DNA of 36,958 bases, taken from the IMG/VR virus record IMGVR_UViG_3300009455_000001. One strand, written 5' to 3'. Below the pieces are notes generated by a model. It saw nothing but the letters and a program-made list of their open reading frames with translations, ran no database searches and was not told where the DNA came from. The translations under genes were made by a program, and so were the position numbers. The stretch comes from a virus. Shown here piece after piece: positions 1-36,958 of this stretch. Positions within the stretch are counted from its first letter, which is position 1. Every line of letters begins with the position of its first letter.

Positions 1-123
1 ACAACGGTTCGGCGCATGTATGCTGAAATTGCCTATAAGCAACTTCCACAAAGACTGCAATTTTTGCATACTGCGCCTGTTGTTTGCTGTTCTCCCGCAC
101 ATTCCTTAGTTTTCTGCGGCGCG
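1..123. repeat. Terminal direct repeat, copy 1 (identical to 36836-36958); contig closes on itself, unit genome 36,835 bp
   Basis: Read directly: acaacggttcggcgcatgta...ttttctgcggcgcg occurs at both window ends. Confidence 0.95.
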
Positions 124-386
124 GTCTTTTTTCTTCCTTCAAAATTTATCGAATATCCAGTACCTTCACAAGCGCTACAAGCATAATCTTCGTATCCATC
201 AGACACTTTTCCAGAACCACCACAATTCGAGCACTCCCTTGGCGCAAGAGTGGTGATGCAATAAGGAGCACAAGAGCCTGGGAGCGTGTTCCATATCTTC
301 GTATCGTCCGCAAGCTCTTGACAATCTTTCCACGTCAAACCCTCGGCTATTACTTTATCGTCGCAGTGCATTATTGCGTAGTGCAT
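33..386 (-). CDS. Small Cys-rich protein with two DnaJ-type CxxCxGxG zinc-finger repeats
   Basis: 117-aa ORF; CSNCGGSG and CSACEGTG motifs; AAGGA RBS upstream of ATG 386; TAG stop lies in the loop of a long hairpin. Confidence 0.6.
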   Translation of the reverse strand: MHYAIMHCDDKVIAEGLTWKDCQELADDTKIWNTLPGSCAPYCITTLAPRECSNCGGSGKVSDGYEDYACSACEGTGYSINFEGRKKTAPQKTKECAGEQQTTGAVCKNCSLCGSCL

Positions 387-389
387 TTT

Positions 390-456
390 GTTTTCCTTCT
401 TTGTATTCCGCGCCGCCTACAACTCCCCTGTCTTGTGCGGGAGAATTGCAAACAAC
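390..456. repeat. Solo half-copy of the GC-clamped repeat module (CCGCGCCGCC...GCAAACAAC), directly upstream of ORF 33-386
   Basis: Aligns by eye with 36780-36840 (ttcttctgtctttccgccgccgcctacaat...attgcaaacaac). Its reverse complement aligns with 79-124. Confidence 0.7.
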
Positions 457-11518: not shown

Positions 11519-12220
11519 TCAAGCCAATCCTTTCATTATGTTGTGGAACTGTTGAGCGCCAACCAAAGCGCGCTCTTCTTTTAAAATTCTATTATGAGAA
11601 ATTTTAGCAGTTGAGGGTACGGCTACACTATGCTCAGTAGGGATTTCACCTTGACAGGGGGAACCATTTAAATTCTTATGAATAATATACCAATCGTCTA
11701 TTCGCATTTCGCTAGTTAGAAGATATCCAGTACGTACAGTTATTCGTTTTGCTAGCGAAGCCGCAGGATGTGGAGCTAAATATACTGTCTTGATTAAACT
11801 TCCATTATATTTGATATAGATTTCTGTTTCATCGTTATTTGAGCTAATTGATATTGTAAACGGGTTGGTAAGAGTAACATGGCCTGACCCATACAGACCG
11901 AAATCAACATCCCCATTAGACCATACATCTATGTATACTGACTGAGAGTAATACGGTGTTCCATCCGCCATTAACGTCATAAAAACTGAGCCAGTTTCCA
12001 GATTATAGGTGGAAACCGTAACAGATGTTTCGAAAGGACCAGTTATTAGCTCCGATGGATTGTCAACAAAGGCTACAGCGTTGTTAAAACCGTATCCACT
12101 TTTAGCCCTTAATTGACCGTTGTTAATCTCTGAGGTTGGTTCAAGTACATATCCAGAAACTGAATCAAAGGAAGTTTTGAAATACTTACTACCCAACGGG
12201 CAAAACGGAGGATTGCTCAT
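11519..12220 (-). CDS. LamG/ConA-like lectin-fold tail-associated protein, paralog 1 (conserved termini, variable core)
   Basis: 233 aa; N-terminus MSNPPFCPLG and C-terminus SPCQGEIPTEHSVAVPSTAKISHNRILKE shared with ORF 14841-15521; core ends with a LamG-like ...RIDDWYII. Confidence 0.55.
   Translation of the reverse strand: MSNPPFCPLGSKYFKTSFDSVSGYVLEPTSEINNGQLRAKSGYGFNNAVAFVDNPSELITGPFETSVTVSTYNLETGSVFMTLMADGTPYYSQSVYIDVWSNGDVDFGLYGSGHVTLTNPFTISISSNNDETEIYIKYNGSLIKTVYLAPHPAASLAKRITVRTGYLLTSEMRIDDWYIIHKNLNGSPCQGEIPTEHSVAVPSTAKISHNRILKEERALVGAQQFHNIMKGLA
11577..11667. repeat. 91-nt direct repeat (about 88 percent identity) with 14899-14989; encodes the shared C-terminal tail of the two paralogs
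   Basis: tcttttaaaattctattatgagaaattttagcagttgagg... aligned by eye, about 11 mismatches, no gaps. Confidence 0.85.
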
Positions 12221-14862
12221 GCTAAAACTCCGCTTTGCGTTATAATTTGGCTCGTGCTCCCAGTTTTTAGTCCTGCAAAAAACTGTCCATTCAATCCGCC
12301 ATTGCTTAAGCAGAATTGAATTGTGTATGGTGTTGTACTCACCGTAATGATACCAGCGGTTGTGTAAAATTTCTTATTTATTACTACAGCAGAGGAAGAA
12401 TTATGAGTGTAAACATCAAACTCTAGACTTCCATCGGTATTTATTTTAAAACGCAAAAGATTCGAACCGTCTCCGCTTTCATCAATAATTATCGCAGAGG
12501 CAAGTGTGGTTACATAAACTTCAGATTCATACGTCATCGCATCGCTAAGATATCCGTCAGCCTGCAATAAATCTAAACCACTCCAATCGCTATCACCATA
12601 ATAACTACTTGTACCACCAATTATCGACTGTCCTCCGCCTGGCGCAAGTGCCGAATCGTACGCGTGTGAGCCCGCAGGGCTTCCGGCTACCCATGAGTGA
12701 TGCCTAGAACGCCCACTTATATCGTAGGCTATATCCCCTGCGGATTCATCGAAAGGAAGGTGCAAAATAACTTGATTCCCCCAGTTTGGAACGCTTGTAT
12801 GAAAAACCGTGTATTGGAATGGGTCAAAGTTAGGGAAATTAGCCGTATCAATAATTGCGACTAAAGTCACAGTTTGAATTGTAAAAGGGGCTTTCGTGTA
12901 GAGTCTAAAATGTAGGTAATTCGCCAATGGTCTTGGTGGTTCTATATAAAGGTTGTACTCCATCTGTCTTAGTGCAGTACTTGTGTAAGTATTCGGATCA
13001 AGTATAAAATTTATTTGCGTTGCGCTTACTCCGCCAGGCCATGGAAGCCCATTCACGTAAGGCGTTCCAACTAACGCATCGGTTAAATCTGCGGTAATTG
13101 ACAACCTCTCAAAATCTAAAATCCCTCGCCCATTATTTACGCTAAATTGGTGAGTGTAAATATCTCCGTAAATATCATCAGTAGTGTCGTCTGCTGTGTT
13201 TCTGTCTGTACTTACTGTTGCATCGTCTATTTGCACCATGTAAGTATTTCGGCTTATCACAAGACCCTTGCTACCGTTATTATAAGTTAAAGCGACTTCC
13301 GCTCTGCTATTCATTGGGTAGTCGTATCGGCTCCAACCTCTTTCGTTTTCTACGTGTAGAACGTAAAAAGTCCCAGTTCCTAGTGAAAGCCAAAGTTTGC
13401 CGTTTAGATAAAAAATAGATACTACCGAAAGCGTTGCAGTCTGTGTGACTGTTCGAATTGTCCTGCTCACCTCTACGCTCGAAACGTTTGTCCACGATTG
13501 ATTATAACCAAATATTTTAAAGTCGCCTTGGTCGTTTGTGATGGCGCAAATTCCGATTCCTGGAATGTATTGAGCTGCCCGAATATGGGTTACGCCGATT
13601 TTATGATCTCTCACATCAAATTCAATTTCAGGGTTACCATCAGTCAAAACGCAAGTCTTAGCTTCTTTTAATGCGACTAGATCCTTTTCAAACGAGATTA
13701 ATTTAATTGTTTGTTGTCCATCTCCTGAATCTACGTCTCTATATTGATAAATATCATATTGGCCTGCGTATGGTGTCCCTGCATAATTAGAGTAATAAAT
13801 TCGGCTCTGAGTCGCATCGTTTGATACGCCTCCAAACCATACTCTTTCTTTATGGTATGTTCCTATTCTAGCAGGTTTATCGCTTATTGGGGAAAGCTCT
13901 ATTTTGTCAATGGTGTAAAGTGGATACCAAGCTCCAGCCGTTGCGTTTGGTAATTCATCGTCCGTTAAGTTGTCCGTAAAGGTGTATGCTGCTGAAATGA
14001 AAGCAGCTTTAGCAATCAATTGACAAGGATAAAGTTCTGTTTCTAAACCTACCACGTCCAAGAATTGGCTCCCGCTTGTGTTTGCATCAAGCCTCTTTGA
14101 ACGATAAAGTCTAATATGAGTCCAAAGCGTGTCGCTGGTTAAAACTGTTGAATCAACAACTATACTACCCTGTTGTCCTGTGAATGTAGTTTTCAATACT
14201 TTCCCAACTGAATTTTTACGGTTAGGACTAGATGCAGCCGAATCAAAAGTATCTACTCCTTGACGATATACAAGCTCTATACCGTAGGTATAAATTCCAG
14301 TAAGATTTCCGCTCCCTGTCCCCGATACGCTGGTTAAAATCGGCAATGGTAATCCCATCTGAGTTTTAACAAATGCGCTGGTACCGTCCCATTCAAATTG
14401 AAAGTTTTGTTGTGAACAGAATCCGAATAATCTATTTCCACTAATAAACCAGTCTACATTCGCTGTCTGGCTAGCAATGGTAAATTGAGTCGTTCCCCCT
14501 TTTATATAAAGTTGTTGCGGGTCTTGCGCCGAGTCTATTTTCCAGTACCAGAATTTGCTTGTTGCGCCATTTAGTGTCTGTACTATCACATATTCGCTCG
14601 TTCCGACATCCCATTGAATAGAGCTTAAAACTGCTTCGTCGGCTAGCTTTCTTGTGAGTCCGTTAATATTTTCGCTACCTCGTCTGCTTTTTAAAAACTT
14701 AGGGAATATATCAATATTGATTGCTCCTCGCATTTCGCCAGAGTTAAGCAGAGCGTGAGGGTCGTAAAGGTTTAAACCAGTCCATTCGGTGATCCCCAAA
14801 TATTCTGTTTCTCTCTTTATTTTCCCTTCTCGTTCCGCTCTCATGTTGCGTTTTTCATCCAA
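12217..14862 (-). CDS. Large tail protein (nozzle / tail tubular B-like) with C-terminal LamG (laminin-G_3) domain
   Basis: 881-aa beta-rich ORF after an adaptor-sized gene. C-terminal LHLPFDESAGDIAYDISGRSRHH...GGGQS resembles the LamG_3 signature. ATG 14844 forms an ATGA overlap with the upstream stop and may be the true start. Confidence 0.5.
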   Translation of the reverse strand: MDEKRNMRAEREGKIKRETEYLGITEWTGLNLYDPHALLNSGEMRGAINIDIFPKFLKSRRGSENINGLTRKLADEAVLSSIQWDVGTSEYVIVQTLNGATSKFWYWKIDSAQDPQQLYIKGGTTQFTIASQTANVDWFISGNRLFGFCSQQNFQFEWDGTSAFVKTQMGLPLPILTSVSGTGSGNLTGIYTYGIELVYRQGVDTFDSAASSPNRKNSVGKVLKTTFTGQQGSIVVDSTVLTSDTLWTHIRLYRSKRLDANTSGSQFLDVVGLETELYPCQLIAKAAFISAAYTFTDNLTDDELPNATAGAWYPLYTIDKIELSPISDKPARIGTYHKERVWFGGVSNDATQSRIYYSNYAGTPYAGQYDIYQYRDVDSGDGQQTIKLISFEKDLVALKEAKTCVLTDGNPEIEFDVRDHKIGVTHIRAAQYIPGIGICAITNDQGDFKIFGYNQSWTNVSSVEVSRTIRTVTQTATLSVVSIFYLNGKLWLSLGTGTFYVLHVENERGWSRYDYPMNSRAEVALTYNNGSKGLVISRNTYMVQIDDATVSTDRNTADDTTDDIYGDIYTHQFSVNNGRGILDFERLSITADLTDALVGTPYVNGLPWPGGVSATQINFILDPNTYTSTALRQMEYNLYIEPPRPLANYLHFRLYTKAPFTIQTVTLVAIIDTANFPNFDPFQYTVFHTSVPNWGNQVILHLPFDESAGDIAYDISGRSRHHSWVAGSPAGSHAYDSALAPGGGQSIIGGTSSYYGDSDWSGLDLLQADGYLSDAMTYESEVYVTTLASAIIIDESGDGSNLLRFKINTDGSLEFDVYTHNSSSAVVINKKFYTTAGIITVSTTPYTIQFCLSNGGLNGQFFAGLKTGSTSQIITQSGVLA

Positions 14863-15521
14863 TCATGGAAGCGTTGAGCTTCTGTTCCAGTTCTGTGCTC
14901 TTTTAAAATTCTATTATGAGAAATTTTAGCAGTTGAGGATACGGCTACACGATGGCTAGATGGAATCTCTCCTTGACAGGGAGAACCATACGCCCCCCAA
15001 TTTGAACCTACGAACACGATATTGGTTAGCGTTGAACCAAAGTGTGGTCGTATCGTAAAATCTTCGTGATACCCACCATATGGTATAGGATTTAGCGAAT
15101 GAACATAAGATATTCGTCCTAATAACGGAGAGTCCATTATCAATGTTGTGTAAATTCCGTTGTATTCTGCGGAGCAGAATGCTGATTGACTGGAATCAAC
15201 GCTACCATTTCCCCATAAATTATTCCCTACTGGTGGAGGCCACCCGCCAGCTTCTATGCCCATTAGATTTGCAGGGTTATTTCCAGTTGTTCGTATAAAA
15301 CGGAAAAACGGCCCCGCTTGGTTGCTAAATGAATGTGCTAATGGTGATACTAGGTAGGCTCGGGTATCCACATAGGCTATATTAAAATAAAACAAATAAG
15401 GGTTATCCCCGTTCGCCGTAGCATTTGGAACCAAACTAGCAGAACCAAGCGCATTTACATATAATGGCCCTGGATTATAATAAAATCTACGTCCCAACTG
15501 GCAAAACGGAGGATTGCTCAT
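14841..15521 (-). CDS. Beta-sandwich tail-associated protein, paralog 2 of 11519-12220
   Basis: ORF runs to 15593, but ATG 15521 (MSNPPFCQLG) makes an ATGA overlap with the upstream stop and matches the paralog N-terminus. C-terminus is SPCQGEIPSSHRVAVSSTAKISHNRILKE. Confidence 0.55.
   Translation of the reverse strand: MSNPPFCQLGRRFYYNPGPLYVNALGSASLVPNATANGDNPYLFYFNIAYVDTRAYLVSPLAHSFSNQAGPFFRFIRTTGNNPANLMGIEAGGWPPPVGNNLWGNGSVDSSQSAFCSAEYNGIYTTLIMDSPLLGRISYVHSLNPIPYGGYHEDFTIRPHFGSTLTNIVFVGSNWGAYGSPCQGEIPSSHRVAVSSTAKISHNRILKEHRTGTEAQRFHDWMKNAT
14899..14989. repeat. 91-nt direct repeat partner of 11577-11667
   Basis: See 11577-11667. A second 29-nt repeat (12192-12220 vs 15493-15521, 1 mismatch) covers the shared 5' ends. 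Confidence 0.85.
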
Positions 15522-16165
15522 GGCAGATTCCCTTCGCTTATCCCATTTCCACCTTGCCCAATTAAAAGGGTATTTTCTGCCATGTCTGACCAAAAATCTC
15601 TAAAGAATGGTTCTATTTCATTTGCCGAAAAAGGCTCTTGGTAAGTCTCGAAGTCGCAAATCCTGCAAGTTGCATTTATTAGACTTAAATGATATTGCTC
15701 AGGAATAATCAAATTTGCGTTGTCTGTTACTCCAGTTAGATCATTTGGGTTTCGGTAATAAATCCATCTCCATTTATTTGCTTCGGTCCCTGGGTCTTCG
15801 ATAAAAGTGAACGTTTGCCCAAAAACATCGATTCGTCCAGGCGCGTTCTCCGTTCTCTGATCCGCCCAATCTCTGTTCATTCCGTAATCGTAGTCTGGGT
15901 CAATGGTAACAGGATTGGTACCAAATATTTCTTCATCGGTAAGTTGCGTCACTCCAATAAGTTTTCGTACTGGTGTTGCTAAAGTTGCAAAAGAATAGGA
16001 AAGCGTAGAAGTTGTCGTGCTTAGCGCAGCGTACAGCTTAAACGCTTCCAAGTCTTTTTTGAAAGCCCATTTCTGGGCAATATTCAAAAAGGTTAGAATA
16101 TCTGACTTGCTGACTCGGTTTTTCTGAATCTGAAATACTTTGTCAATAATATTAGAAGTATTCAT
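15518..16165 (-). CDS. Putative head-to-tail adaptor (tail tubular A-like) protein
   Basis: 215 aa; size and position between capsid genes and the large tail gene; no motif recognised. Confidence 0.35.
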   Translation of the reverse strand: MNTSNIIDKVFQIQKNRVSKSDILTFLNIAQKWAFKKDLEAFKLYAALSTTTSTLSYSFATLATPVRKLIGVTQLTDEEIFGTNPVTIDPDYDYGMNRDWADQRTENAPGRIDVFGQTFTFIEDPGTEANKWRWIYYRNPNDLTGVTDNANLIIPEQYHLSLINATCRICDFETYQEPFSANEIEPFFRDFWSDMAENTLLIGQGGNGISEGNLP

Positions 16166-25979: not shown

Positions 25980-26618
25980 TCACCAGACTTCACGGCTGGC
26001 TAAATGCGAATTTCTAATTTTTTCCTGAATTTTCTTTATTCTTAGCCTTGCTCCTTCTTTGGATATTCCATTTTGCTCACCGATCTCGCTGAGCGTTCGT
26101 TTCTCTACTCCAATTCCAAAAAACTGCTTTAGATGTAGTTTTTCATTCGATGTTAGATTTTTAAGCAACAACTCTACATCTAACCCCAAATCGTCTTCTA
26201 TCTCATTTTCTGCAAATTTAGATTCCCCATCGCCCCATTCTATATTTTCTGTTTTTCTTGCATTTTTCAGCATATTCATGCTTTCTTTATTATTCTTTGA
26301 AGCCTTCGAAAAAGCACTCATCGCTATTTGAGCTGGCAGCTTGACAGTCGTATCGCTCTGAATATATCGCATAATTCTAGCGCGAATATGCCAAATTGCG
26401 TACGTTATGAAGGATACTCCAATATTTGAATTAAATTTTAGAGCGGCTGCACAGATAGCTATTTTCCCCTCGGAAACGCAATCTTTTATATTGCTGCTGT
26501 TCGCATATTTTCGCGAAACATTCCACAAATGCCCTTCGTTTGCTTTTATTATTTGTCCAAGAATTTTGGAGCATTTTGTTTTTTGATATTCGCAAACCAT
26601 TTCGTTAATTTGATTCAT
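25980..26618 (-). CDS. Phage-encoded sigma-70 family RNA polymerase sigma factor (regions 2 and 4)
   Basis: 212 aa; region 2-like SEGKIAICAAALKFNSNIGVSFITYAIWHIRARIMRYI and region 4 HTH TLSEIGEQNGISKEGARLRIKKIQEKIR. Confidence 0.8.
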   Translation of the reverse strand: MNQINEMVCEYQKTKCSKILGQIIKANEGHLWNVSRKYANSSNIKDCVSEGKIAICAAALKFNSNIGVSFITYAIWHIRARIMRYIQSDTTVKLPAQIAMSAFSKASKNNKESMNMLKNARKTENIEWGDGESKFAENEIEDDLGLDVELLLKNLTSNEKLHLKQFFGIGVEKRTLSEIGEQNGISKEGARLRIKKIQEKIRNSHLASREVW

Positions 26619-32812: not shown

Positions 32813-33055
32813 TCAAAACCCAAATCCATTCCACCACAACCAGAAAAGAGAGAAAGGACATTTAATATTATCTTCCATAGTCATTAATGAAAGTGACTTA
32901 TGTACTTTACCATGTTCAATATTAGTAAACCAAATGCCCCCACTCAAATTTACTATTTCTTTGCCTTCGCTATTTATTTTAATATCCTTTTCTTTAAACG
33001 TGTGCCGTGTTACGACGTGGACAGCGTTGGAAAACGTGACGGAGTTTTGCGACAT
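32813..33055 (-). pseudogene. Internal fragment of an M.EcoRI-family adenine methyltransferase (gene remnant)
   Basis: INSEGKEIVNLSGGIWFTNIEHGKVHKSLSL parallels M.EcoRI IDSNGNRIISPNNCLWLTNLDVFIRHKDLPL as recalled from memory. No catalytic NPPF region or C-terminal part in any frame. Confidence 0.45.
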
Positions 33056-33067
33056 GACACGTTTTCT

Positions 33068-33376
33068 TCAAACGCTGGACATGTGCCCGTAGGGCGAGTG
33101 CTTTGTATACCTGCGCCAAGCAACTTCTATGAAGGCGAGTGGCCTACCTTTTTCACAAGAAGTACCATCTTTTTCGATAACAAAATCAAGGTCGTGTGAA
33201 TTACCGTATTTGTCAATCCATGAAACTTTCTTCCCTTCTCTCGCACTGCCTCGGTTTCCTTTTGAATCAAGATAGTAGTGGTGTTTTCTGCAAAACTCCG
33301 ATAGAATCGGTTTTACAATTTCTTCCAATAAATTACCGATGACCTGTCCGAAAAGATGTGACGGTGATTCTGCCAT
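33068..33376 (-). pseudogene. Truncated restriction-endonuclease-like ORF, partner of the upstream methyltransferase
   Basis: Starts 3 nt after the MTase stop. HDLDFVIEKD...AFIEVAWRRYTKH is PD-(D/E)XK-like. Only 102 aa, ends at TGA 33068-33070 and is in frame with ORF 32813-33055. Confidence 0.4.
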
Positions 33377-33379
33377 TAA

Positions 33380-34708
33380 TCATCCCCTAATCCAAAGTCG
33401 CCCTTCTTGTAAAGGAACTCGGTGTTTGCGGTTTTTCCATTTTATATTTCTATCTCTTATTTTATCAAAGTCGCAGGAAATAAATCCCGCATTAATGGCA
33501 AGGGCTGAAAACCATTTATCCGCTGGTGCATAGATTCCGTATGGTGCGGAATCGTCAATCACAAAACACATTAATGAATCTTTTTTCATGATTTTTCGCA
33601 ATGCAATGAATGTTTTGGCGATATCCAAATAATATGCTGCAATCATGGTGTGGTAAGTTTTTTTGCCACCTTTTGACAATCTAATTATGGAGAGTTCCTC
33701 ACATACAGAAGACAGTTCAGGTTTAATGGGGTCTATTTCTGGGGAGTTAAGTAGATTGTCAAGCGTAAGTCTTTCAGCCGCTGAATGTTGTGAACACGAA
33801 CGAATCAAATATTTACGGATTTTATCCTGCAAGCCAGCCCATCCATTGAGTTCTCCCCAAAAGAGAAGTTCAAGACGTGTTGCATCAGCATAATCATAAT
33901 TATTGGGGTAAGGTGGTGATGTGATTAATGCGTCAAATTCATAGCTTCCGAATGGTAATATTTCGCGTGCATCATGCTTAAGCAGAGTTGAATGGGTGTG
34001 GACAAACGAAGATTGAGCACAAAGCATGTCTTCTGACATTTGGTTAACTTTTAATGAAAATGCATCGAAAGCGTCAATGACATTACTCTTGGGTTTATTT
34101 GGTAAGATATATTGCCATTGGGCTGTTCCGGCTGTACTTGTGATTCTTAGGATACTTGTTATTGCAAGCCACAAAAGTTCAAATTCTGGAGAATCGTCAT
34201 TGTACTTAAAAAATGCGTCACGAAGAGATTCTAATTTTGATAAATTCTCAAGAGTATAGCATTTGGAAAGTAGTGGGACCGCTTTTAATTTGGATTCAAC
34301 AGGATTCTTTTTGGCAAAATTGAGAAGTTTTATTGACAATTTGCAGAATAAATCAATATTGGCATTCCAGCGGAGTTTCGCAGTGGCGATTCTACTTACA
34401 AACGGATGCGATTCAAAACCAACGGAATTAATGCCAAGGGCGTCAGCACATACCAATACTGTTCCTGAACCAGCAAAAGGGTCGAGAACATAGCAAGAAC
34501 TGTTTAATTTCATTCGCCGCAAAGTTCTTTCAACCCATTCTGCCGAAAATCCTGCTGAATAACGATACCAACGATGAATTGGCAATTTCATATTGTCGGT
34601 AAAAGTGCCTTCGCGCTCTCTAACCAACTCGGGGGCCTCATTTTTGGTTTCGTCGGGTAAAAGCAAAGGCAAAGTTGTCTGGTATGCTACGCTCAAAAGT
34701 ATCTCCAA
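33380..34708 (-). CDS. Type II DNA methyltransferase (N6-adenine or N4-cytosine), motif I before motif IV
   Basis: 442 aa; DPFAGSGT (AdoMet motif I) then, about 190 aa later, TSPPYPNNYDY (motif IV). TTG start at 34708, first ATG at 34591. Confidence 0.8.
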   Translation of the reverse strand: MEILLSVAYQTTLPLLLPDETKNEAPELVREREGTFTDNMKLPIHRWYRYSAGFSAEWVERTLRRMKLNSSCYVLDPFAGSGTVLVCADALGINSVGFESHPFVSRIATAKLRWNANIDLFCKLSIKLLNFAKKNPVESKLKAVPLLSKCYTLENLSKLESLRDAFFKYNDDSPEFELLWLAITSILRITSTAGTAQWQYILPNKPKSNVIDAFDAFSLKVNQMSEDMLCAQSSFVHTHSTLLKHDAREILPFGSYEFDALITSPPYPNNYDYADATRLELLFWGELNGWAGLQDKIRKYLIRSCSQHSAAERLTLDNLLNSPEIDPIKPELSSVCEELSIIRLSKGGKKTYHTMIAAYYLDIAKTFIALRKIMKKDSLMCFVIDDSAPYGIYAPADKWFSALAINAGFISCDFDKIRDRNIKWKNRKHRVPLQEGRLWIRG

Positions 34709-34818
34709 GTCGTTGATTTTTATAGCCTATTACTCATTTCAGCAAATATGCTTCATAAAATACCTAATTGAACGGGTAAAATCCTCATACTATTTTACAC
34801 CGCCGCCTCTTTGTTTTG

Positions 34819-35048
34819 AACGGGGGCTGTCTTCGTCTTTTTCATGCTCTTTTCTTTCTCCCCGCCGCCGACTATAATCCATTCTTGCCCGGTTTATTGC
34901 GCCTAACGTCGTGGCCAACAGTTGATCGTGCGGCTTTGCGCATGTCAACTTTGGCCTGTTGTTTGTCTGTATGTAAAGCACCTACTACAGCTACTGTTCT
35001 TCGGCGGCGGTTTTTTTGTATTTCTTCCCTGGCATTCCAGCCCCCGTT
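34819..35048. repeat. 230-bp nested palindromic element with perfect 11-bp terminal inverted repeats (MITE-like), copy A
   Basis: AACGGGGGCTG 34819-34829 / CAGCCCCCGTT 35038-35048; CCGCCGCCG 34862-34870 / CGGCGGCGG 35002-35010 followed by T7; central hairpin 34913-34956. Confidence 0.8.
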
Positions 35049-35068
35049 TCGCCTTTTTTTATGCAGTT

Positions 35069-35803
35069 TTATTTGGTTGAGGAATTAAATATTACAAGGC
35101 TATTCCAATCAATACGACCACTATCGTCACAAAAAGTATTTGCAAATTCTTTTGTGAATTTATTAATCATTTGTGAGTATGACTCAAGAAAAGCTTCATT
35201 TTTTTCTTTTGCTTTATAACCAAGCGGTTCAATGATCTCAGTGTATAATGTGGAATTACCAGAAATAAATTCCCAAAATTTCTACCCACAATATTTAAAG
35301 TACTCACCTTTGTCTGGCTTATTATCACGACCATAACAACAACCATTTACTGCAAAAATATTTAATTGTGAATTACTAGTCCTAAGAGCCTTTTTTGCTG
35401 TCTTAAAGTCACTTTTCATTTTAGCTATTTGGGAGCTGTTCCCCCAATTTGGTCCAGACTTAATTGTTACAATATTCCTTACTTTATCATTATCGAATTC
35501 AAGGTCAATACCAGTAATTCCAGATTTCCGCCCCCCAAACACTTTCCCATTAATAAAAATCGAAAGGCCTTCAAGCCAATCCCCAAAAATGCCCTCTTCA
35601 CTGGATGAAATATGAGCGTCAACCAAACTTTTAATGATTTGCTCAGCAGTAAGAACATATTTGGCTTTAAACAAGTATGGATTTTTTCGTTTTAGAACCT
35701 GTTTTAATTTTAAACCGTCAAGGCTTTGAATCCTTTTTTTATGAAAAGTTCCGATATTTTCTTCAACGTACAGCGTAACGTCTTTTAGGTTTAGGTTTTT
35801 CAT
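35069..35803 (-). pseudogene. Eco47II/PmeII-like type II restriction endonuclease interrupted by an in-frame TAG (35282-35284)
   Basis: RKNPYLFKAK, SSSEEGIFGDWLEGL, GIDLEF and IKSGPNWGNSSQ motifs. After the TAG the same frame stays open for 70 codons (KFWEFISGNSTLYTEIIEPLG...) to TAA 35069-35071. Confidence 0.6.
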
Positions 35804-36641
35804 ATTTTCCTTTTGGTTCGAGAAGGTAGAGTTCCACTGGTGGTAATTGACTTTTAACAATATCATAGTAATCTTTGACAATGTCTATACCTATTGAGTT
35901 ACGGCGCATTCTATTTGCTACAACCAAAGTTGTTCCTGAACCCATAAAGGGGTCTAAAACGATATCGTTTTCTTTGGTAAACAACTTAATAAACCATTCA
36001 GGAAGTTCTGCAGGAAACGCTGCACTATGGTTTTTATTGCTACATTCAGTAGCTAAATGAAGAACATTTGCTGGGTATGCTTTATCTCTTGCCAGCCAAT
36101 TTGAAATGTTTTTACCAAACCCACTCCCAACTTTGGAGTTATCGCGTGTTTTATCTGTTTCGCTCAGATTTTTTAAACGAGTTTTTGCCCAATCTCCCAT
36201 GGGTACCATGACATTTTCTTGGTACATATTAAAACTTTTTGATTTATTGAACTGAAGGAGACGTTCCCAAGCATCACGGAATCTATTTGGCCATTTTCCT
36301 GGGTAGCAGTTTTTTTTATGCCAGATGAATTCTTCTGTCCAAAGCCACCCTTGTTTTCGCATTTCTAAAATTAATTCCATGACATAAGTACTACGCTCAC
36401 CGTTCACTACCTTTTCTTTTATGTTTAAAATGAATGTGCCACTTGGCTTTAAAACACGAAGTAACTGCTGTGTTATTGGAAGAAACCATGAGACATAGCT
36501 ATCTGGATGTATTCCTCCATAAGTCCCTTTTCTTTGGTCTGCATAAGGTGGTGAAGTAACTATTAGGTCTACAGAATCAGTAGGAATTTTAAGAAGCTCT
36601 ACCTTGCTGTCTCCCAAATAAATATCTGTTTTAATTTCCAT
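35763..36641 (-). CDS. Type II DNA methyltransferase, beta-class amino-MTase (motif IV before motif I)
   Basis: 292 aa; TSPPYADQRK near the N-terminus, DPFMGSGTT near the C-terminus; GAAGG RBS; 3' end overlaps the endonuclease start. Confidence 0.85.
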   Translation of the reverse strand: MEIKTDIYLGDSKVELLKIPTDSVDLIVTSPPYADQRKGTYGGIHPDSYVSWFLPITQQLLRVLKPSGTFILNIKEKVVNGERSTYVMELILEMRKQGWLWTEEFIWHKKNCYPGKWPNRFRDAWERLLQFNKSKSFNMYQENVMVPMGDWAKTRLKNLSETDKTRDNSKVGSGFGKNISNWLARDKAYPANVLHLATECSNKNHSAAFPAELPEWFIKLFTKENDIVLDPFMGSGTTLVVANRMRRNSIGIDIVKDYYDIVKSQLPPVELYLLEPKGKYEKPKPKRRYAVR

Positions 36642-36667
36642 TTTAGCCTTCTATTGCTTAAGCCTTT

Positions 36668-36733
36668 AAACGAATAAATTTACTCTAAAAATAACTATTA
36701 GACACACATGAAACTTGTTATTTTTATTCGTTT
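36668..36733. promoter_or_regulatory. Perfect 11-bp inverted repeat AAACGAATAAA / TTTATTCGTTT upstream of the methyltransferase gene (candidate operator or 5' UTR hairpin)
   Basis: 36668-36678 and 36723-36733, read directly; 27-92 nt upstream of ATG 36641. Confidence 0.4.
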
Positions 36734-36747
36734 GACTCTTTCCTTTT

Positions 36748-36958
36748 AACGGGGGCTGTCTTCCATTTTTCTATTGTTTTTTTCTTCTGTCTTTCCGCCG
36801 CCGCCTACAATTTCCTTGTGCTTTACATATTGCAAACAACGGTTCGGCGCATGTATGCTGAAATTGCCTATAAGCAACTTCCACAAAGACTGCAATTTTT
36901 GCATACTGCGCCTGTTGTTTGCTGTTCTCCCGCACATTCCTTAGTTTTCTGCGGCGCG
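36748..36958. repeat. Copy B of the GC-clamped palindromic element (continues to about nt 131 after wrap-around)
   Basis: AACGGGGGCTGTCTTC 36748-36763 shared with copy A. CCGCCGCCGCC 36795-36805 pairs with GCGGCGCGG (116-124). Core hairpin 36832-36867 / 36892-36922. Confidence 0.75.
36836..36958. repeat. Terminal direct repeat, copy 2 (identical to 1-123)
   Basis: Read directly. Confidence 0.95.

What the first reader, a model, noticed from the sequence alone, without database searches (positions are those of the whole stretch)
34709..36958. Repeat copies sit ~110 nt upstream of each methyltransferase and bracket a whole R-M cassette
Copy A starts 111 nt upstream of the M1 start (34819 vs 34708). 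Copy B starts 107 nt upstream of the M2 start (36748 vs 36641). Together they flank the M2-R2 cassette (35069-36641). Minus-strand order is: holin, half-repeat (390-456), Zn-finger ORF, repeat B, M2, R2*, repeat A, M1, R1*. Every accessory gene set at this end of the genome is therefore bounded by a repeat. This suggests either repeat-bounded moron cassettes acquired or duplicated by recombination at the repeats, or a repeat that carries the promoter/insulator for R-M expression. Direct repeats 1.9 kb apart also predict recombinational loss of the cassette.
Basis: inference. Interest (0 to 1): 0.65.

Follow-up and report, generated by a model that had tools for sequence, protein, structure and literature searches.

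The report
Mobile gene cassettes in a phage
The repeats are the boundary modules of a row of swappable gene cassettes, and one cassette, a complete restriction-modification system, also sits almost identical (96%) and precisely inserted in a Fibrobacter chromosome; this suggests the phage captured its host's own defence genes through a cassette system that resembles an integron but does not match the canonical integron.

Summary
Conserved sequence lies about 110 nt upstream of both methyltransferase genes and brackets M2-R2. A third partial copy precedes the Zn-finger ORF.

The repeats are composite junctions. Each contains the right arm of one cassette (ending CAAC), a bulged hairpin (J), a 4-6 nt spacer, and the left arm of the next cassette (GTTGnnnGCAAT, then TTRTAGGCGGCGG). 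The two arms of one cassette are inverted copies of each other.

The same architecture recurs in about 20 uncultured phage contigs. It flanks methyltransferases, Acb2/Tad1, Lar and Zn-ribbon genes, whose neighbours differ between contigs. The breakpoints fall at AAC|GTTG.

The unit from 36840 to 34958 is 96% identical to a Fibrobacter chromosomal locus with an intact endonuclease gene. There the unit, plus its own J hairpin, interrupts a repeat gene precisely at CC|GTTA. No target duplication is present beyond the shared GTT.

In the phage both endonuclease genes are dead. R2 has an in-frame TAG and R1 is truncated.

Best reading: mobile cassettes whose layout resembles integron attC sites, with an unknown recombinase. 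Homologous exchange at the conserved linkers, as with T4 PeSLs, also occurs. Promoter function is untested.

The parts
408..456 (-). Left arm of the Zn-finger cassette. s1 is GTTGTTTGCAATTCTCCCGCACA (456-434). TTGTAG plus s2 GGCGGCGCGG is at 422-408. An RBS and the ATG at 386 follow.
   Evidence: (I6, D10). The complementary right arm is at 101-79: score 18 versus at most 10.5 in shuffles.
33..386 (-). Zn-finger ORF with DnaJ-like CxxCxGxG motifs. It reads through its own right arm and the 5' arm of the J hairpin, and stops in the J loop.
   Evidence: Eight homologues have 62-89% identity. The tail TAPK..AGEQQTT.AVCKNCSLCG.CL is conserved in 6 of 8.
79..124 (-). Right arm of the Zn-finger cassette: s2' CCGCGCCGC (124-116) and s1' TGTGCGGGAGAACAGCAAACAAC (101-79). 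It appears again at 36914-36958 because of the assembly overlap.
   Evidence: There is a compensatory G:C to T:A change in s2 between the window and L121.
36841..36913 (-). Junction hairpin J_B plus spacer. It runs: A, 5' arm GGCGCAGTATGC (36912-36901), loop, 3' arm GCATAC(A)TGCGCC (36858-36846, one bulged base), spacer GAACC (36845-36841).
   Evidence: There are two compensatory pairs versus L121.
36748..36840 (-). Left arm of the M2-R2 cassette (the 'repeat B' core). s1 GTTGTTTGCAATATGTAAAGCAC is at 36840-36818. TTGTAG plus s2 is at 36810-36795. s3 GAAGACAGCCCCCGTT is at 36763-36748.
   Evidence: The 96% similarity to the Fibrobacter-type loci starts here.
35763..36641 (-). M2, an N6/N4 DNA methyltransferase.
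   Evidence: 83-98% identical homologues in many bacteria.
35069..35803 (-). R2, an EcoO109I-family endonuclease gene inactivated by an in-frame TAG at 35284-35282.
   Evidence: The bacterial copies encode an intact 244-aa protein.
34958..35048 (-). Right arm of the M2-R2 cassette: s3' AACGGGGGCTGG (35048-35037), s2' CCGCCGCCG (35010-35002), s1' GTGCTTTACATACAGACAAACAAC (34981-34958).
   Evidence: score 15 versus at most 10.5 in shuffles, 1.86 kb from its mate; similarity to the bacterial copies ends at 34956.
34908..34957 (-). Junction hairpin J_A plus spacer. It runs: A, GGCCAAAGTTGA (34956-34945), loop, TCAAC(T)GTTGGCC (34925-34913, one bulged base), spacer ACGAC (34912-34908).
34819..34907 (-). 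Left arm of the M1 cassette (the 'repeat A' core). s1 GTTAGGCGCAATAAACCGGGC is at 34907-34887. TTATAG plus s2 is at 34877-34860. s3 is at 34834-34819.
   Evidence: No complementary right arm was found downstream.
34792..34820 (-). Sigma-70-like match TTCAAA-17-TAAAAT upstream of M1. The B copy has TTAAAA-17-TAAAAA at 36749-36721.
   Evidence: These are consensus matches only and are not enriched over shuffles.
33380..34708 (-). M1, an N6/N4 DNA methyltransferase.
33068..33376 (-). 5' fragment of R1, ending in an in-frame TGA at 33070-33068. The 3' part of the gene and the cassette's right arm are missing.
   Evidence: L275 has an intact 289-aa ORF followed by a right arm. Window similarity stops at 33096.

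Best explanation
The 'repeat copies' are the junction modules of an array of three mobile gene cassettes (Zn-finger; M2-R2; M1-R1) at the early end of a roughly 36.8-kb phage, probably of a Fibrobacterota host.

Anatomy. A cassette starts at GTT(G/A)nnnGCAAT. A variable stretch follows, then TT(A/G)TAGGCGGCGG, an RBS and the cargo. It ends with an inverted copy of its own start (...ACAGCnnnCAAC). That is followed by a bulged hairpin (J) and a 4-6 nt spacer, and the next cassette begins at GTT.

Shown:
- The arms of one cassette pair with each other in a fixed layout: 9 bp, a 3x3 internal loop (AAT opposite ACA), then at least 10 bp.
- Cassettes are reshuffled between related phages with breakpoints at the core.
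- The M2-R2 cassette also exists with its own J hairpin in a Fibrobacter chromosome. It is inserted precisely at CC|GTTA inside a gene, with no target duplication other than GTT.
- Both endonuclease genes are dead in the phage.

Inferred:
- Cassettes move by structure-guided site-specific recombination across the GTT at the foot of the folded palindrome (right arm - J - left arm). The topology is that of integron attC x attI or secondary-site recombination.
- The recombinase is unidentified. It is not recognisable in this phage and is probably supplied by the host.
- Homologous exchange between the conserved linker segments adds further mosaicism.
- The pay-off for the phage is the capture of host methyltransferases, which would protect its DNA from the matching host endonuclease.
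For: Anatomy and coordinates.

Family:
- The junction core recurs on the coding strand in L120-L134.
- It also recurs in about 10 IMG/VR contigs recovered with a motif scan.

Arm pairing:
- 21 distinct cassettes show 89.6% standard pairs and a covariation score of 0.885. Shuffled and slid controls give 0.11-0.20.
- Non-cognate arms find a mate in only 79 of 3178 tests.
- Arm complementarity is Watson-Crick on both strands: 6 G.T versus 7 A.C among 399 cells. This argues for DNA-level rather than RNA-level constraint.

J hairpin: 6 bp, a 1-nt bulge, then at least 5 bp. The second helix is 60% paired with a 1-nt bulge and 25-31% with other bulge sizes.

Exchange points:
- The same Zn cassette in L121, L122 and L124 has different upstream DNA, diverging at AAC|GTTG.
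- L123 diverges from L121 just after AACCGTTG.

Mobility:
- The window is 96% identical to L272, L269 and L271 only from 36842/36693 to 34956.
- Empty paralogous sites read ..ccggaagcc|GTTATAGCC.., against ..ccggaaacc|[cassette+J+AGCCC]|GTTACGGCC.. at the occupied site.
- Reconstructing the empty site gives 79/100 identities at one offset and at most 55 at any other.

Cargo:
- Methyltransferases, Acb2/Tad1, Lar and Zn-ribbon proteins.
- R2 has an in-frame TAG and R1 is truncated.
- ORFs run into the arms in different reading frames, and L121 has an ORF-less 59-nt unit.
Against: - No tyrosine or serine recombinase or HUH transposase was found by Pfam among the roughly 40 window proteins tested.
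- Only the AAC/GTT triplets match the attC consensus. Spacings and stem lengths do not.
- Similarity between the phage and Fibrobacter copies stops at CAAC|AG, so the J hairpins differ. A simple cassette-plus-J unit would keep the same J, so at least one extra exchange must be assumed.
- Identical arm pairs carry unrelated cargo: L135 versus L141, and the window versus L143. Homologous recombination between linkers explains this more simply.
- Each cassette has a promoter-like motif with fixed spacing, unlike typical promoterless integron cassettes.
- The arm set was selected for complementarity, so the pairing percentage is partly circular.
- Only one precise insertion event was reconstructed.
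- The strict left-arm motif, scanned over 185,579 species genomes, gave 116 hits. That is about what I estimated by hand from base frequencies (roughly 87). Only a handful, mostly Fibrobacterota, look real.
Confidence: 0.55

Rival explanations
1. PeSL-like regulatory linkers. The junctions would be promoter-plus-hairpin expression signals that insulate each accessory gene. Cassette shuffling would be a by-product of the phage's own homologous recombination (Gp157-family protein, NinG) acting on these short conserved sequences. No dedicated recombinase or defined crossover site would be needed.
For: - GCAAT and TTATAG are 15-18 nt apart in 42 of 52 junctions, followed by a purine-rich RBS.
- A TTCAAA-17-TAAAAT match precedes M1.
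- Several different exchange points are used: CAAC|AG, spacer|GTTG, between s2' and s1' in L119, and inside the arms in L135/L141.
- The phage encodes recombination proteins.
- Precedent: PeSLs in T4-type phages (PMC2839356).
Against: - It gives no reason for each cassette's two arms to be complementary, for the conserved 3x3 loop, or for the bulged J.
- It does not explain a precise, duplication-free insertion into a pseudo-core (AACC|GTTA) inside a bacterial gene that shares no other homology.
- Canonical TTGACA-N17-TATATT promoters sit upstream of some arrays (L132, L129), so the junction motif is not the standard promoter.
- Sigma-70-like matches are not enriched.
Confidence: 0.25
2. RNA processing stems. 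In a polycistronic early transcript the two arms of each cassette would pair over long range, as the stems flanking 16S and 23S rRNA do. This would make an RNase III-type site with an internal loop. J would be a protective 3' hairpin, by analogy with the RNase III sites between T7 early genes.
For: - Long-range closed folds are more stable than shuffled sequence, with z-scores of -3.7 to -4.5.
- The 9 bp + internal loop + 10 bp layout resembles T7 RNase III sites (from my own knowledge).
- A single strong promoter sits upstream of some arrays.
Against: - G.U pairs are not enriched over A.C in the arms (6 versus 7 of 399).
- In one search, the J hairpins that follow ..CAAC-A directly mostly fold more stably on the antisense strand (my tally from the listed energies: 14 of 18). 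All 40 segments taken together show no bias (20 versus 19).
- ORFs are translated through the right arm and the 5' arm of J, with stop codons in the J loop. Cleavage there would produce non-stop mRNAs.
- It does not explain the precise chromosomal insertion.
Confidence: 0.08
3. Non-autonomous transposon. The cassette would be mobilised in trans by a single-strand (HUH, IS200/IS605- or IS91-like) or other transposase that recognises a subterminal 3' hairpin (J) and inserts 3' of an AAC(C) target. Because every element ends in ...AAC(C), elements would insert after one another and form arrays.
For: - The insertion has no target duplication and lies next to AACC.
- A hairpin sits 4-6 nt from the 3' boundary.
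- Every unit ends in (A/G)AAC(C), which matches the target.
Against: - No HUH or TnpA-like gene was seen in the window or the loci examined.
- IS200/IS605 elements lack long terminal inverted repeats, whereas these units have arms of 22 to about 100 nt.
- There is no left-end hairpin.
Confidence: 0.1

Closest known systems
Integron gene cassettes and attC sites, including attC clusters without an integrase (CALINs) reported in virulent phages (Qi et al. 2023, PMC9892861)
   Same: - Arrays of small accessory genes, all in one direction.
- An imperfect palindrome between cassettes in which only AAC...GTT is invariant.
- An inner stem with an extrahelical base on the arm next to GTT.
- A variable loop.
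- ORFs that overlap the site.
- The start of a cassette is complementary to the inverse core at its own 3' end.
- Insertion at a GTT-containing secondary site without duplication.
- Methyltransferase cargo in phages.
   Different: - The RYYYAAC/GTTRRRY consensus and the canonical spacings are not met.
- The 'R box' is 22 to about 100 nt long with a conserved 3x3 loop.
- The J stem is 11-13 bp.
- The spacer is asymmetric (1 nt versus 4-6 nt).
- Each cassette carries a promoter-like motif.
- No intI gene was found.
- MW202573, one of the published CALIN phages, has no copy of this motif.
PeSLs (promoter-early stem-loops) of T4-type phages (Arbiol et al. 2010, PMC2839356; Comeau et al. 2014, PMC4122927)
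   Same: - Repeated intergenic modules with a promoter-like part and a GC-rich hairpin.
- They flank non-essential genes.
- They mark the insertion, deletion and replacement points between related phages.
   Different: - PeSLs have no cassette-specific inverted arms, no GTT/AAC core and no precise insertion into unrelated DNA.
- They occur in a different phage group and have different sequences.
- PeSL hairpins were shown to terminate transcription, whereas J lacks a U-tract on the coding strand.
Morons, meaning independent transcription units inserted between phage genes (from my own knowledge of Hendrix and colleagues' work)
   Same: Accessory genes with their own expression signals, added at a module boundary, with base composition that differs from the neighbouring DNA.
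   Different: Morons are defined by content, not by a shared boundary structure. Here the boundaries are a conserved structured element shared with a bacterial chromosome.
Single-stranded-DNA promoters (Frpo) next to anti-defence genes in plasmid leading regions (bioRxiv 10.1101/2023.02.15.528439; mechanism recalled from my own knowledge)
   Same: The promoter-like sequence is embedded in an imperfect intrastrand duplex and is associated with anti-defence cargo.
   Different: - Frpo elements are local hairpins on DNA that enters single-stranded.
- Here the pairing partners lie on either side of the cargo, and the phage is presumably double-stranded.

Membership tests
Integron attC site / gene cassette | Inverse core R'' (RYYYAAC) and core R' (GTTRRRY) at the two ends of an imperfect palindrome | tested here: inconclusive
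   AAC and GTT are invariant and correctly placed (A2). Positions 4-7 are mostly GTTGnnn, which does not fit RRRY. Only copy A (GTTAGGC) fits.
Integron attC site / gene cassette | L''/L' inner stem with extrahelical base(s), an unpaired central spacer, and a total size of 57-141 nt | tested here: not met
   An inner stem with one bulged base exists. However, it is 11-13 bp, the spacer is 1 nt versus 4-6 nt, and the paired arms extend for 22 to about 100 nt.
Integron attC site / gene cassette | Crossover at G|TT, so that a cassette's 5' end matches the inverse core at its own 3' end, with insertion at attI or GTT secondary sites without duplication | tested here: met
   Cognate arm pairing. Breakpoints at AAC|GTTG. 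Precise insertion at CC|GTTA.
Integron attC site / gene cassette | An integron integrase (IntI) next to the array, or recombination by IntI | tested here: not met
   No integrase-family Pfam hit among the window proteins tested. Host genomes could not be surveyed. Recombination itself cannot be tested with these tools.
Integron attC site / gene cassette | Detection by IntegronFinder or HattCI models | not testable with these tools
Rfam gave no hit at gathering thresholds and only three matches far below threshold in the region.
PeSL (T4-type promoter-early stem-loop) | A strong sigma-70-like early promoter plus a terminator stem-loop in the intergenic space | tested here: inconclusive
   A fixed-spacing two-box motif and a hairpin are present. 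However, the boxes are not the sigma-70 consensus, matches are not enriched, and there is no U-tract on the coding strand.
PeSL (T4-type promoter-early stem-loop) | Located in hyperplastic regions of T4-type myoviruses, with sequence similarity to known PeSLs | tested here: not met
   This is a 36.8-kb phage with no nucleotide match in GenBank phages. Its portal protein is at most 23% identical to the nearest hits there.
DDE-type MITE / transposon | Terminal inverted repeats plus a target-site duplication | tested here: not met
   Inverted arms are present, but the reconstructed insertion has no duplication beyond the shared GTT.
IS200/IS605-type element or its non-autonomous derivative | Subterminal hairpins at both ends, no terminal inverted repeats, insertion 3' of a short target without duplication, TnpA (HUH) | tested here: inconclusive
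   The 3' subterminal hairpin and the duplication-free insertion are met. A left-end hairpin and TnpA were not found, and long inverted arms are present.
Type II restriction-modification system (functional) | Intact methyltransferase and intact cognate endonuclease | tested here: not met
   M1 and M2 are intact. R2 has an in-frame TAG. R1 is a 5' fragment with an in-frame TGA. The bacterial copies are intact.

The most novel reading that the evidence does not exclude
Fibrobacterota and their phages may share a previously undescribed cassette-mobility system, guided by DNA hairpins. Units bounded by GTTG...CAAC arms and a bulged 3' hairpin would integrate at GTT by a recombinase unrelated to, or far diverged from, integron integrases. 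The system would move defence genes in bacteria and counter-defence genes in phages. It would let a phage capture the very R-M cassette that restricts it.
Probability: 0.35. Interest if true: 0.9.

Novelty: new variant of a known kind. Interest (0 to 1): 0.78.

Why it matters
If the cassettes are truly mobile, this is a cassette-exchange platform that operates in both a bacterial phylum and its lytic-type phages.

- It gives a concrete route by which phages acquire host methyltransferases to escape restriction, with the endonuclease partner then being inactivated.
- It extends integron-like logic (structure-defined sites and arrays of exchangeable genes) beyond canonical integrons and their integrase.
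- The conserved junction motif is a practical handle. Genes framed by it in uncultured phage contigs are candidate anti-defence genes; Acb2/Tad1, Lar and many methyltransferases are already among them.
- The system is directly testable by read mapping for excision circles, by a co-occurrence search for the recombinase, and by recombination assays.

Tried and rejected
- Rfam. There were no hits at gathering thresholds over the whole window. Only three matches far below threshold appeared in the region. No known RNA family is involved.
- Small protein-coding genes inside the repeats. The 63-aa and 54-aa ORFs use different reading frames at homologous DNA. Rejected.
- Exact 16-mer in IMG/VR. The six hits share nothing else with the window and are chance matches.
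- Close relatives of the phage.
  - GenBank phages gave no nucleotide match.
  - Primase-helicase gave no relative in IMG/VR.
  - The only other assembly (Logan SRR5747426) is 100% identical.
  - The predicted deletion polymorphism therefore could not be tested on this phage.
- Zn-finger protein in IMG/VR (none) and in JGI metagenomes (5 short contigs).
- Right arm for the M1 cassette. None was found downstream. This was later explained by truncation of R1.
- Published phage CALIN MW202573. It has no copy of the motif.
- Motif scan of 185,579 species genomes. It returned 116 single hits, mostly chance, with no arrays and no cognate arms in the 8-kb loci returned.
- Strand choice from G.U pairs. 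The arms show no bias. The J hairpins taken as a whole show none.
- R1 family assignment. There was no Pfam or NCBIfam hit.
- M2 homologues in 23 other viral contigs. None carries the arms.
Full report
**1. What the window is**

The window is a circular phage assembly: bases 1-123 equal 36836-36958, giving a unit of 36,835 bp. Almost all genes are on the minus strand, in this order:
- accessory genes;
- Gp157-family protein, DnaD-like loader, primase-helicase, NinG and a sigma factor;
- terminase, portal, capsid and tail genes;
- endolysin and holin.

The finding concerns the stretch between the holin and the early genes. An identical contig exists in a second data set, Logan SRR5747426. GenBank phages gave no nucleotide match, and the portal protein finds only 22-23% identical relatives there.

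**2.

- GACAGCCCCCGTT occurs exactly at 34819-34831 and 36748-36760 on the minus strand. An inverted 11/13 copy lies at 35036-35048. That is 3 hits against 0.35 expected.
- These copies are 111 and 107 nt upstream of M1 and M2.
- Copies A and B align at 68% over 140 nt (E 2e-12) and 70% over 74 nt.
- A half copy lies at 456-385 (D10).
- M1 and M2 are N6/N4 methyltransferases. R2 is an EcoO109I-family gene with an in-frame TAG. 'R1' ends in an in-frame TGA.

**3. Anatomy of the repeats**

Read on the coding (minus) strand, each 'repeat' is a composite of four parts:
- the right arm of one cassette, ending CAAC;
- one A, then a hairpin (J) with a single bulged base in its 3' arm;
- a 4-6 nt spacer;
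- the left arm of the next cassette, which is GTTGnnnGCAAT, a variable stretch, TTRTAGGCGGCGG, and in the two R-M cassettes GAAGACAGCCCCCGTT.

The arms that flank one cassette are inverted copies of each other:
- 456-434 pairs with 101-79 around the Zn-finger ORF.
- 36840-36818 pairs with 34981-34958 around M2-R2, 1.86 kb apart.
- Matching s2 (GGCGGCGG) and s3 segments pair as well. The s2 segment of the Zn pair carries its own variant, GCGGCGCGG/CCGCGCCGC.

The motif occurs nowhere else in the genome.

**4. The elements belong to a family**

- The Zn-finger protein has eight homologues on short metagenomic contigs.
- In those contigs the same core, (A/C)AAC(C)|GTTGnnn(G/C)(A/C)AAT, sits at every gene boundary on the coding strand.
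- A motif scan of IMG/VR recovered about ten further phage contigs of 27-55 kb with the same modules.
- Across 52 distinct junctions, GCAAT and TTATAG are 15-18 nt apart in 42 cases, followed by GGCGGC and a purine-rich RBS.

Arm pairing has a fixed layout: 9 bp, a 3x3 internal loop (AAT opposite ACA in 19 of 21), then at least 10 bp.
- In 21 distinct cassettes, 89.6% of cells are standard pairs and the covariation score is 0.885. Shuffled and slid controls give 0.11-0.20.
- This set was selected for complementarity, so the fairer control is this: non-cognate left arms find such a mate in only 79 of 3178 tests.

The J hairpin is 6 bp, a 1-nt bulge, then at least 5 bp. The second helix is 60% paired with a bulge of one, and 25-31% with bulges of 0, 2 or 3.

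Compensatory changes are seen between orthologous Zn cassettes:
- s2 changes from G:C to T:A.
- Two pairs change in J. The 5' arm of J is coding and the 3' arm is not.
- The L125 left arm has been re-matched to a lineage-specific coding sequence.
- Zn genes that lack the left arm also lack the 14 codons that form the right arm (L129).

**5. The cassettes are exchanged**

- The same Zn cassette (protein P0005) has three different upstream sequences in L121, L122 and L124. They diverge at AAC|GTTG.
- L123 shares the cassette and its J with L121 and diverges just after AACCGTTG.
- In the closest relative (L132/L133, 89% identical Zn protein), the position occupied by M2-R2 holds other units, including a Lar-family gene.
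- Cargo across the family includes several N6/N4, C5 and small Dam-like methyltransferases (the last two classes read from motifs in the translations), Acb2/Tad1, Lar, DUF3850 and many Zn-ribbon proteins. This is largely counter-defence content.
- Arm pairs are not tied to cargo. L135 and L141 share both arms but carry unrelated genes. The window's M2-R2 arm type also frames a 404-aa methyltransferase in L143 and M1-type genes in L274 and L275.

**6. The decisive result: the same unit in a bacterial chromosome**

M2 has 83-98% identical homologues in many bacteria. A 98% identical copy lies in a Fibrobacter sp. MAG and in 18.9-kb contigs. There it sits next to MurJ, serpin and YDG-domain genes, and has an intact 244-aa endonuclease gene.

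- At the DNA level these loci are 96% identical to the window only from the left-arm GTTG (36840) to the right-arm CAAC (34958).
- In the bacterium the unit, followed by its own J hairpin and the spacer AGCCC, interrupts a gene made of 258-nt repeats.
- Uninterrupted paralogous sites read ..ccggaagcc|GTTATAGCCTTGCCGG...
- The occupied site reads ..ccggaaacc|[GTTG...CAAC-A-J-AGCCC]|GTTACGGCCTTGCCGG...
- Joining the flanks reproduces the empty site at exactly one offset (79/100 identities, at most 55 at any other).

This is a precise 1.95-kb insertion at a pseudo-core AACC|GTTA, with no duplication other than the shared GTT.

M2 homologues at 53-86% identity in 23 other viral contigs lack the arms. 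The arms are therefore a cassette frame, not part of the R-M genes.

The M1 relative L275 has an intact 289-aa downstream gene and then a right arm, J and core. The window keeps only the first 93 or so codons of that gene and has lost the right arm. That explains why M1 has no downstream repeat.

**7. How it most likely works**

Shown:
- the modular anatomy;
- complementarity of the two arms of each cassette;
- exchange at the core;
- one precise duplication-free insertion;
- a shared cassette between phage and bacterium;
- inactivation of both endonuclease genes in the phage.

Inferred: integration and excision occur by structure-guided site-specific recombination across GTT at the base of the folded palindrome (right arm - J - left arm). 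This is the topology of attC in a circular integron cassette, as described in the literature (PMC9892861, and my own knowledge). Four observations fit a DNA-level site:
- Arm pairing is Watson-Crick on both strands, with 6 G.T versus 7 A.C among 399 cells.
- ORFs run through the arms in different reading frames.
- L121 contains an ORF-less unit.
- In one search, the J hairpins that follow ..CAAC-A directly mostly fold better on the antisense strand (my tally: 14 of 18).

The recombinase is unknown; none is recognisable in this phage. Homologous exchange between linkers clearly also occurs. Examples are the different J in the phage and Fibrobacter copies and the same arms carrying different cargo.

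Host assignment to Fibrobacterota is an inference. It rests on the shared cassette and on four Fibrobacterota MAGs among the 116 genome hits.

**8. Rivals**

- *PeSL-like promoter/hairpin linkers shuffled by homologous recombination (PMC2839356).* This explains the multiple exchange points and the promoter-like motif. It does not explain the matched arms or the precise insertion into unrelated DNA.
- *Long-range RNA stems for RNase III-type processing.* This fits the fold statistics. It is disfavoured by the lack of G.U pairs and by translation through the stems.
- *An HUH-type non-autonomous transposon.* This fits the duplication-free insertion next to a 3' hairpin. It lacks a transposase, and the unit has long inverted arms.

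**9. Comparison with known systems and novelty**

The closest known systems are integron cassettes, including attC clusters in virulent phages that carry methyltransferases (PMC9892861), and T4-type PeSLs. This family fails the canonical attC consensus and spacing. It has no integrase nearby and carries promoter-like signals. One published CALIN phage lacks the motif. I therefore file it as a new variant of a known kind rather than as a member of either family.

The promoter idea remains untested. The predicted deletion was not observed.

Noticed in passing
window 1-123 and 36836-36958: The two ends are identical, so the contig is a circular assembly of 36,835 bp. Repeat B and the Zn-finger ORF span the artificial break.
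   Followed up: yes
window 35282-35284 and 33068-33070: Both endonuclease genes are inactivated. R2 has an in-frame TAG. R1 has an in-frame TGA, and its 3' part has been lost. The bacterial copies are intact (244 aa and 289 aa).
   Followed up: yes
window 32813-33055 (minus strand): An 80-aa ORF downstream of the R1 fragment has a weak Pfam match to part of the EcoRI methylase family (E 4.5e-6). It may be a remnant of yet another methyltransferase.
   Followed up: no
window 11577-11667 vs 14899-14989, and 12187-12221 vs 15488-15522: Two pairs of direct repeats (88% and 91% identical) lie about 3.3 kb apart inside the structural gene region. This suggests a duplicated module around the 881-aa gene.
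   Followed up: no
window 25980-26618 (minus strand): The phage encodes its own sigma factor (sigma-70 regions 2 and 4), next to a NinG-family gene. Its promoters were not sought.
   Followed up: no
L272 (Logan DRR784985, 1955 bp): This contig is exactly one M-R cassette unit, circularly permuted. The break lies in the J loop and the ends overlap by only 3 nt. It could be an excised circle, a tandem copy or an array context.
   Followed up: partly
L165 end and L271 start (Fibrobacter MAG GCA_012515615.1): In this genome a further element, flanked by the duplicated sequence TATTTTTAGA, is inserted between the cassette's left arm and the methyltransferase start. This is probably why the assembly breaks there.
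   Followed up: partly
L121 1177-1235: A 59-nt unit has a left arm, the TTATAGGCGG motif and a right arm (GTTGTAC...GTACAAC) but no ORF. It sits between two ordinary junctions and is in effect an empty cassette.
   Followed up: partly
L146 136-366, L121 546-785, window 33-78 and others: The J loops often encode short Cys-rich (zinc-ribbon-like) tails in frame with the upstream ORF. Many cassette proteins therefore share a C-terminal CxxC...CxxC module encoded inside the hairpin.
   Followed up: no
L190 1589-5909 (Fibrobacteres 113-kb contig): A left-arm motif with an s3-like box precedes a 158-aa ORF and a 1221-aa DUF6079 protein in a bacterial contig. No right arm was found within the 8 kb held.
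   Followed up: partly
L132 about 380-440 and L129/L131 upstream of the Zn gene: Canonical TTGAC(A/T)-N17-TATATT promoters sit just upstream of some arrays. The arrays may therefore be transcribed as early operons independently of the junction motif.
   Followed up: no
L119 16-1515: In this relative the Zn-finger array converges on the holin and endolysin genes. In the window it follows them on the same strand. Its Zn gene also carries a different right arm.
   Followed up: no
window 34820-34836 and 36751-36764 (plus strand): The conserved s3 box scores as a weak terminator-like hairpin followed by a T-run on the antisense strand. T-runs also follow the GC-rich s2' segment on that strand.
   Followed up: partly
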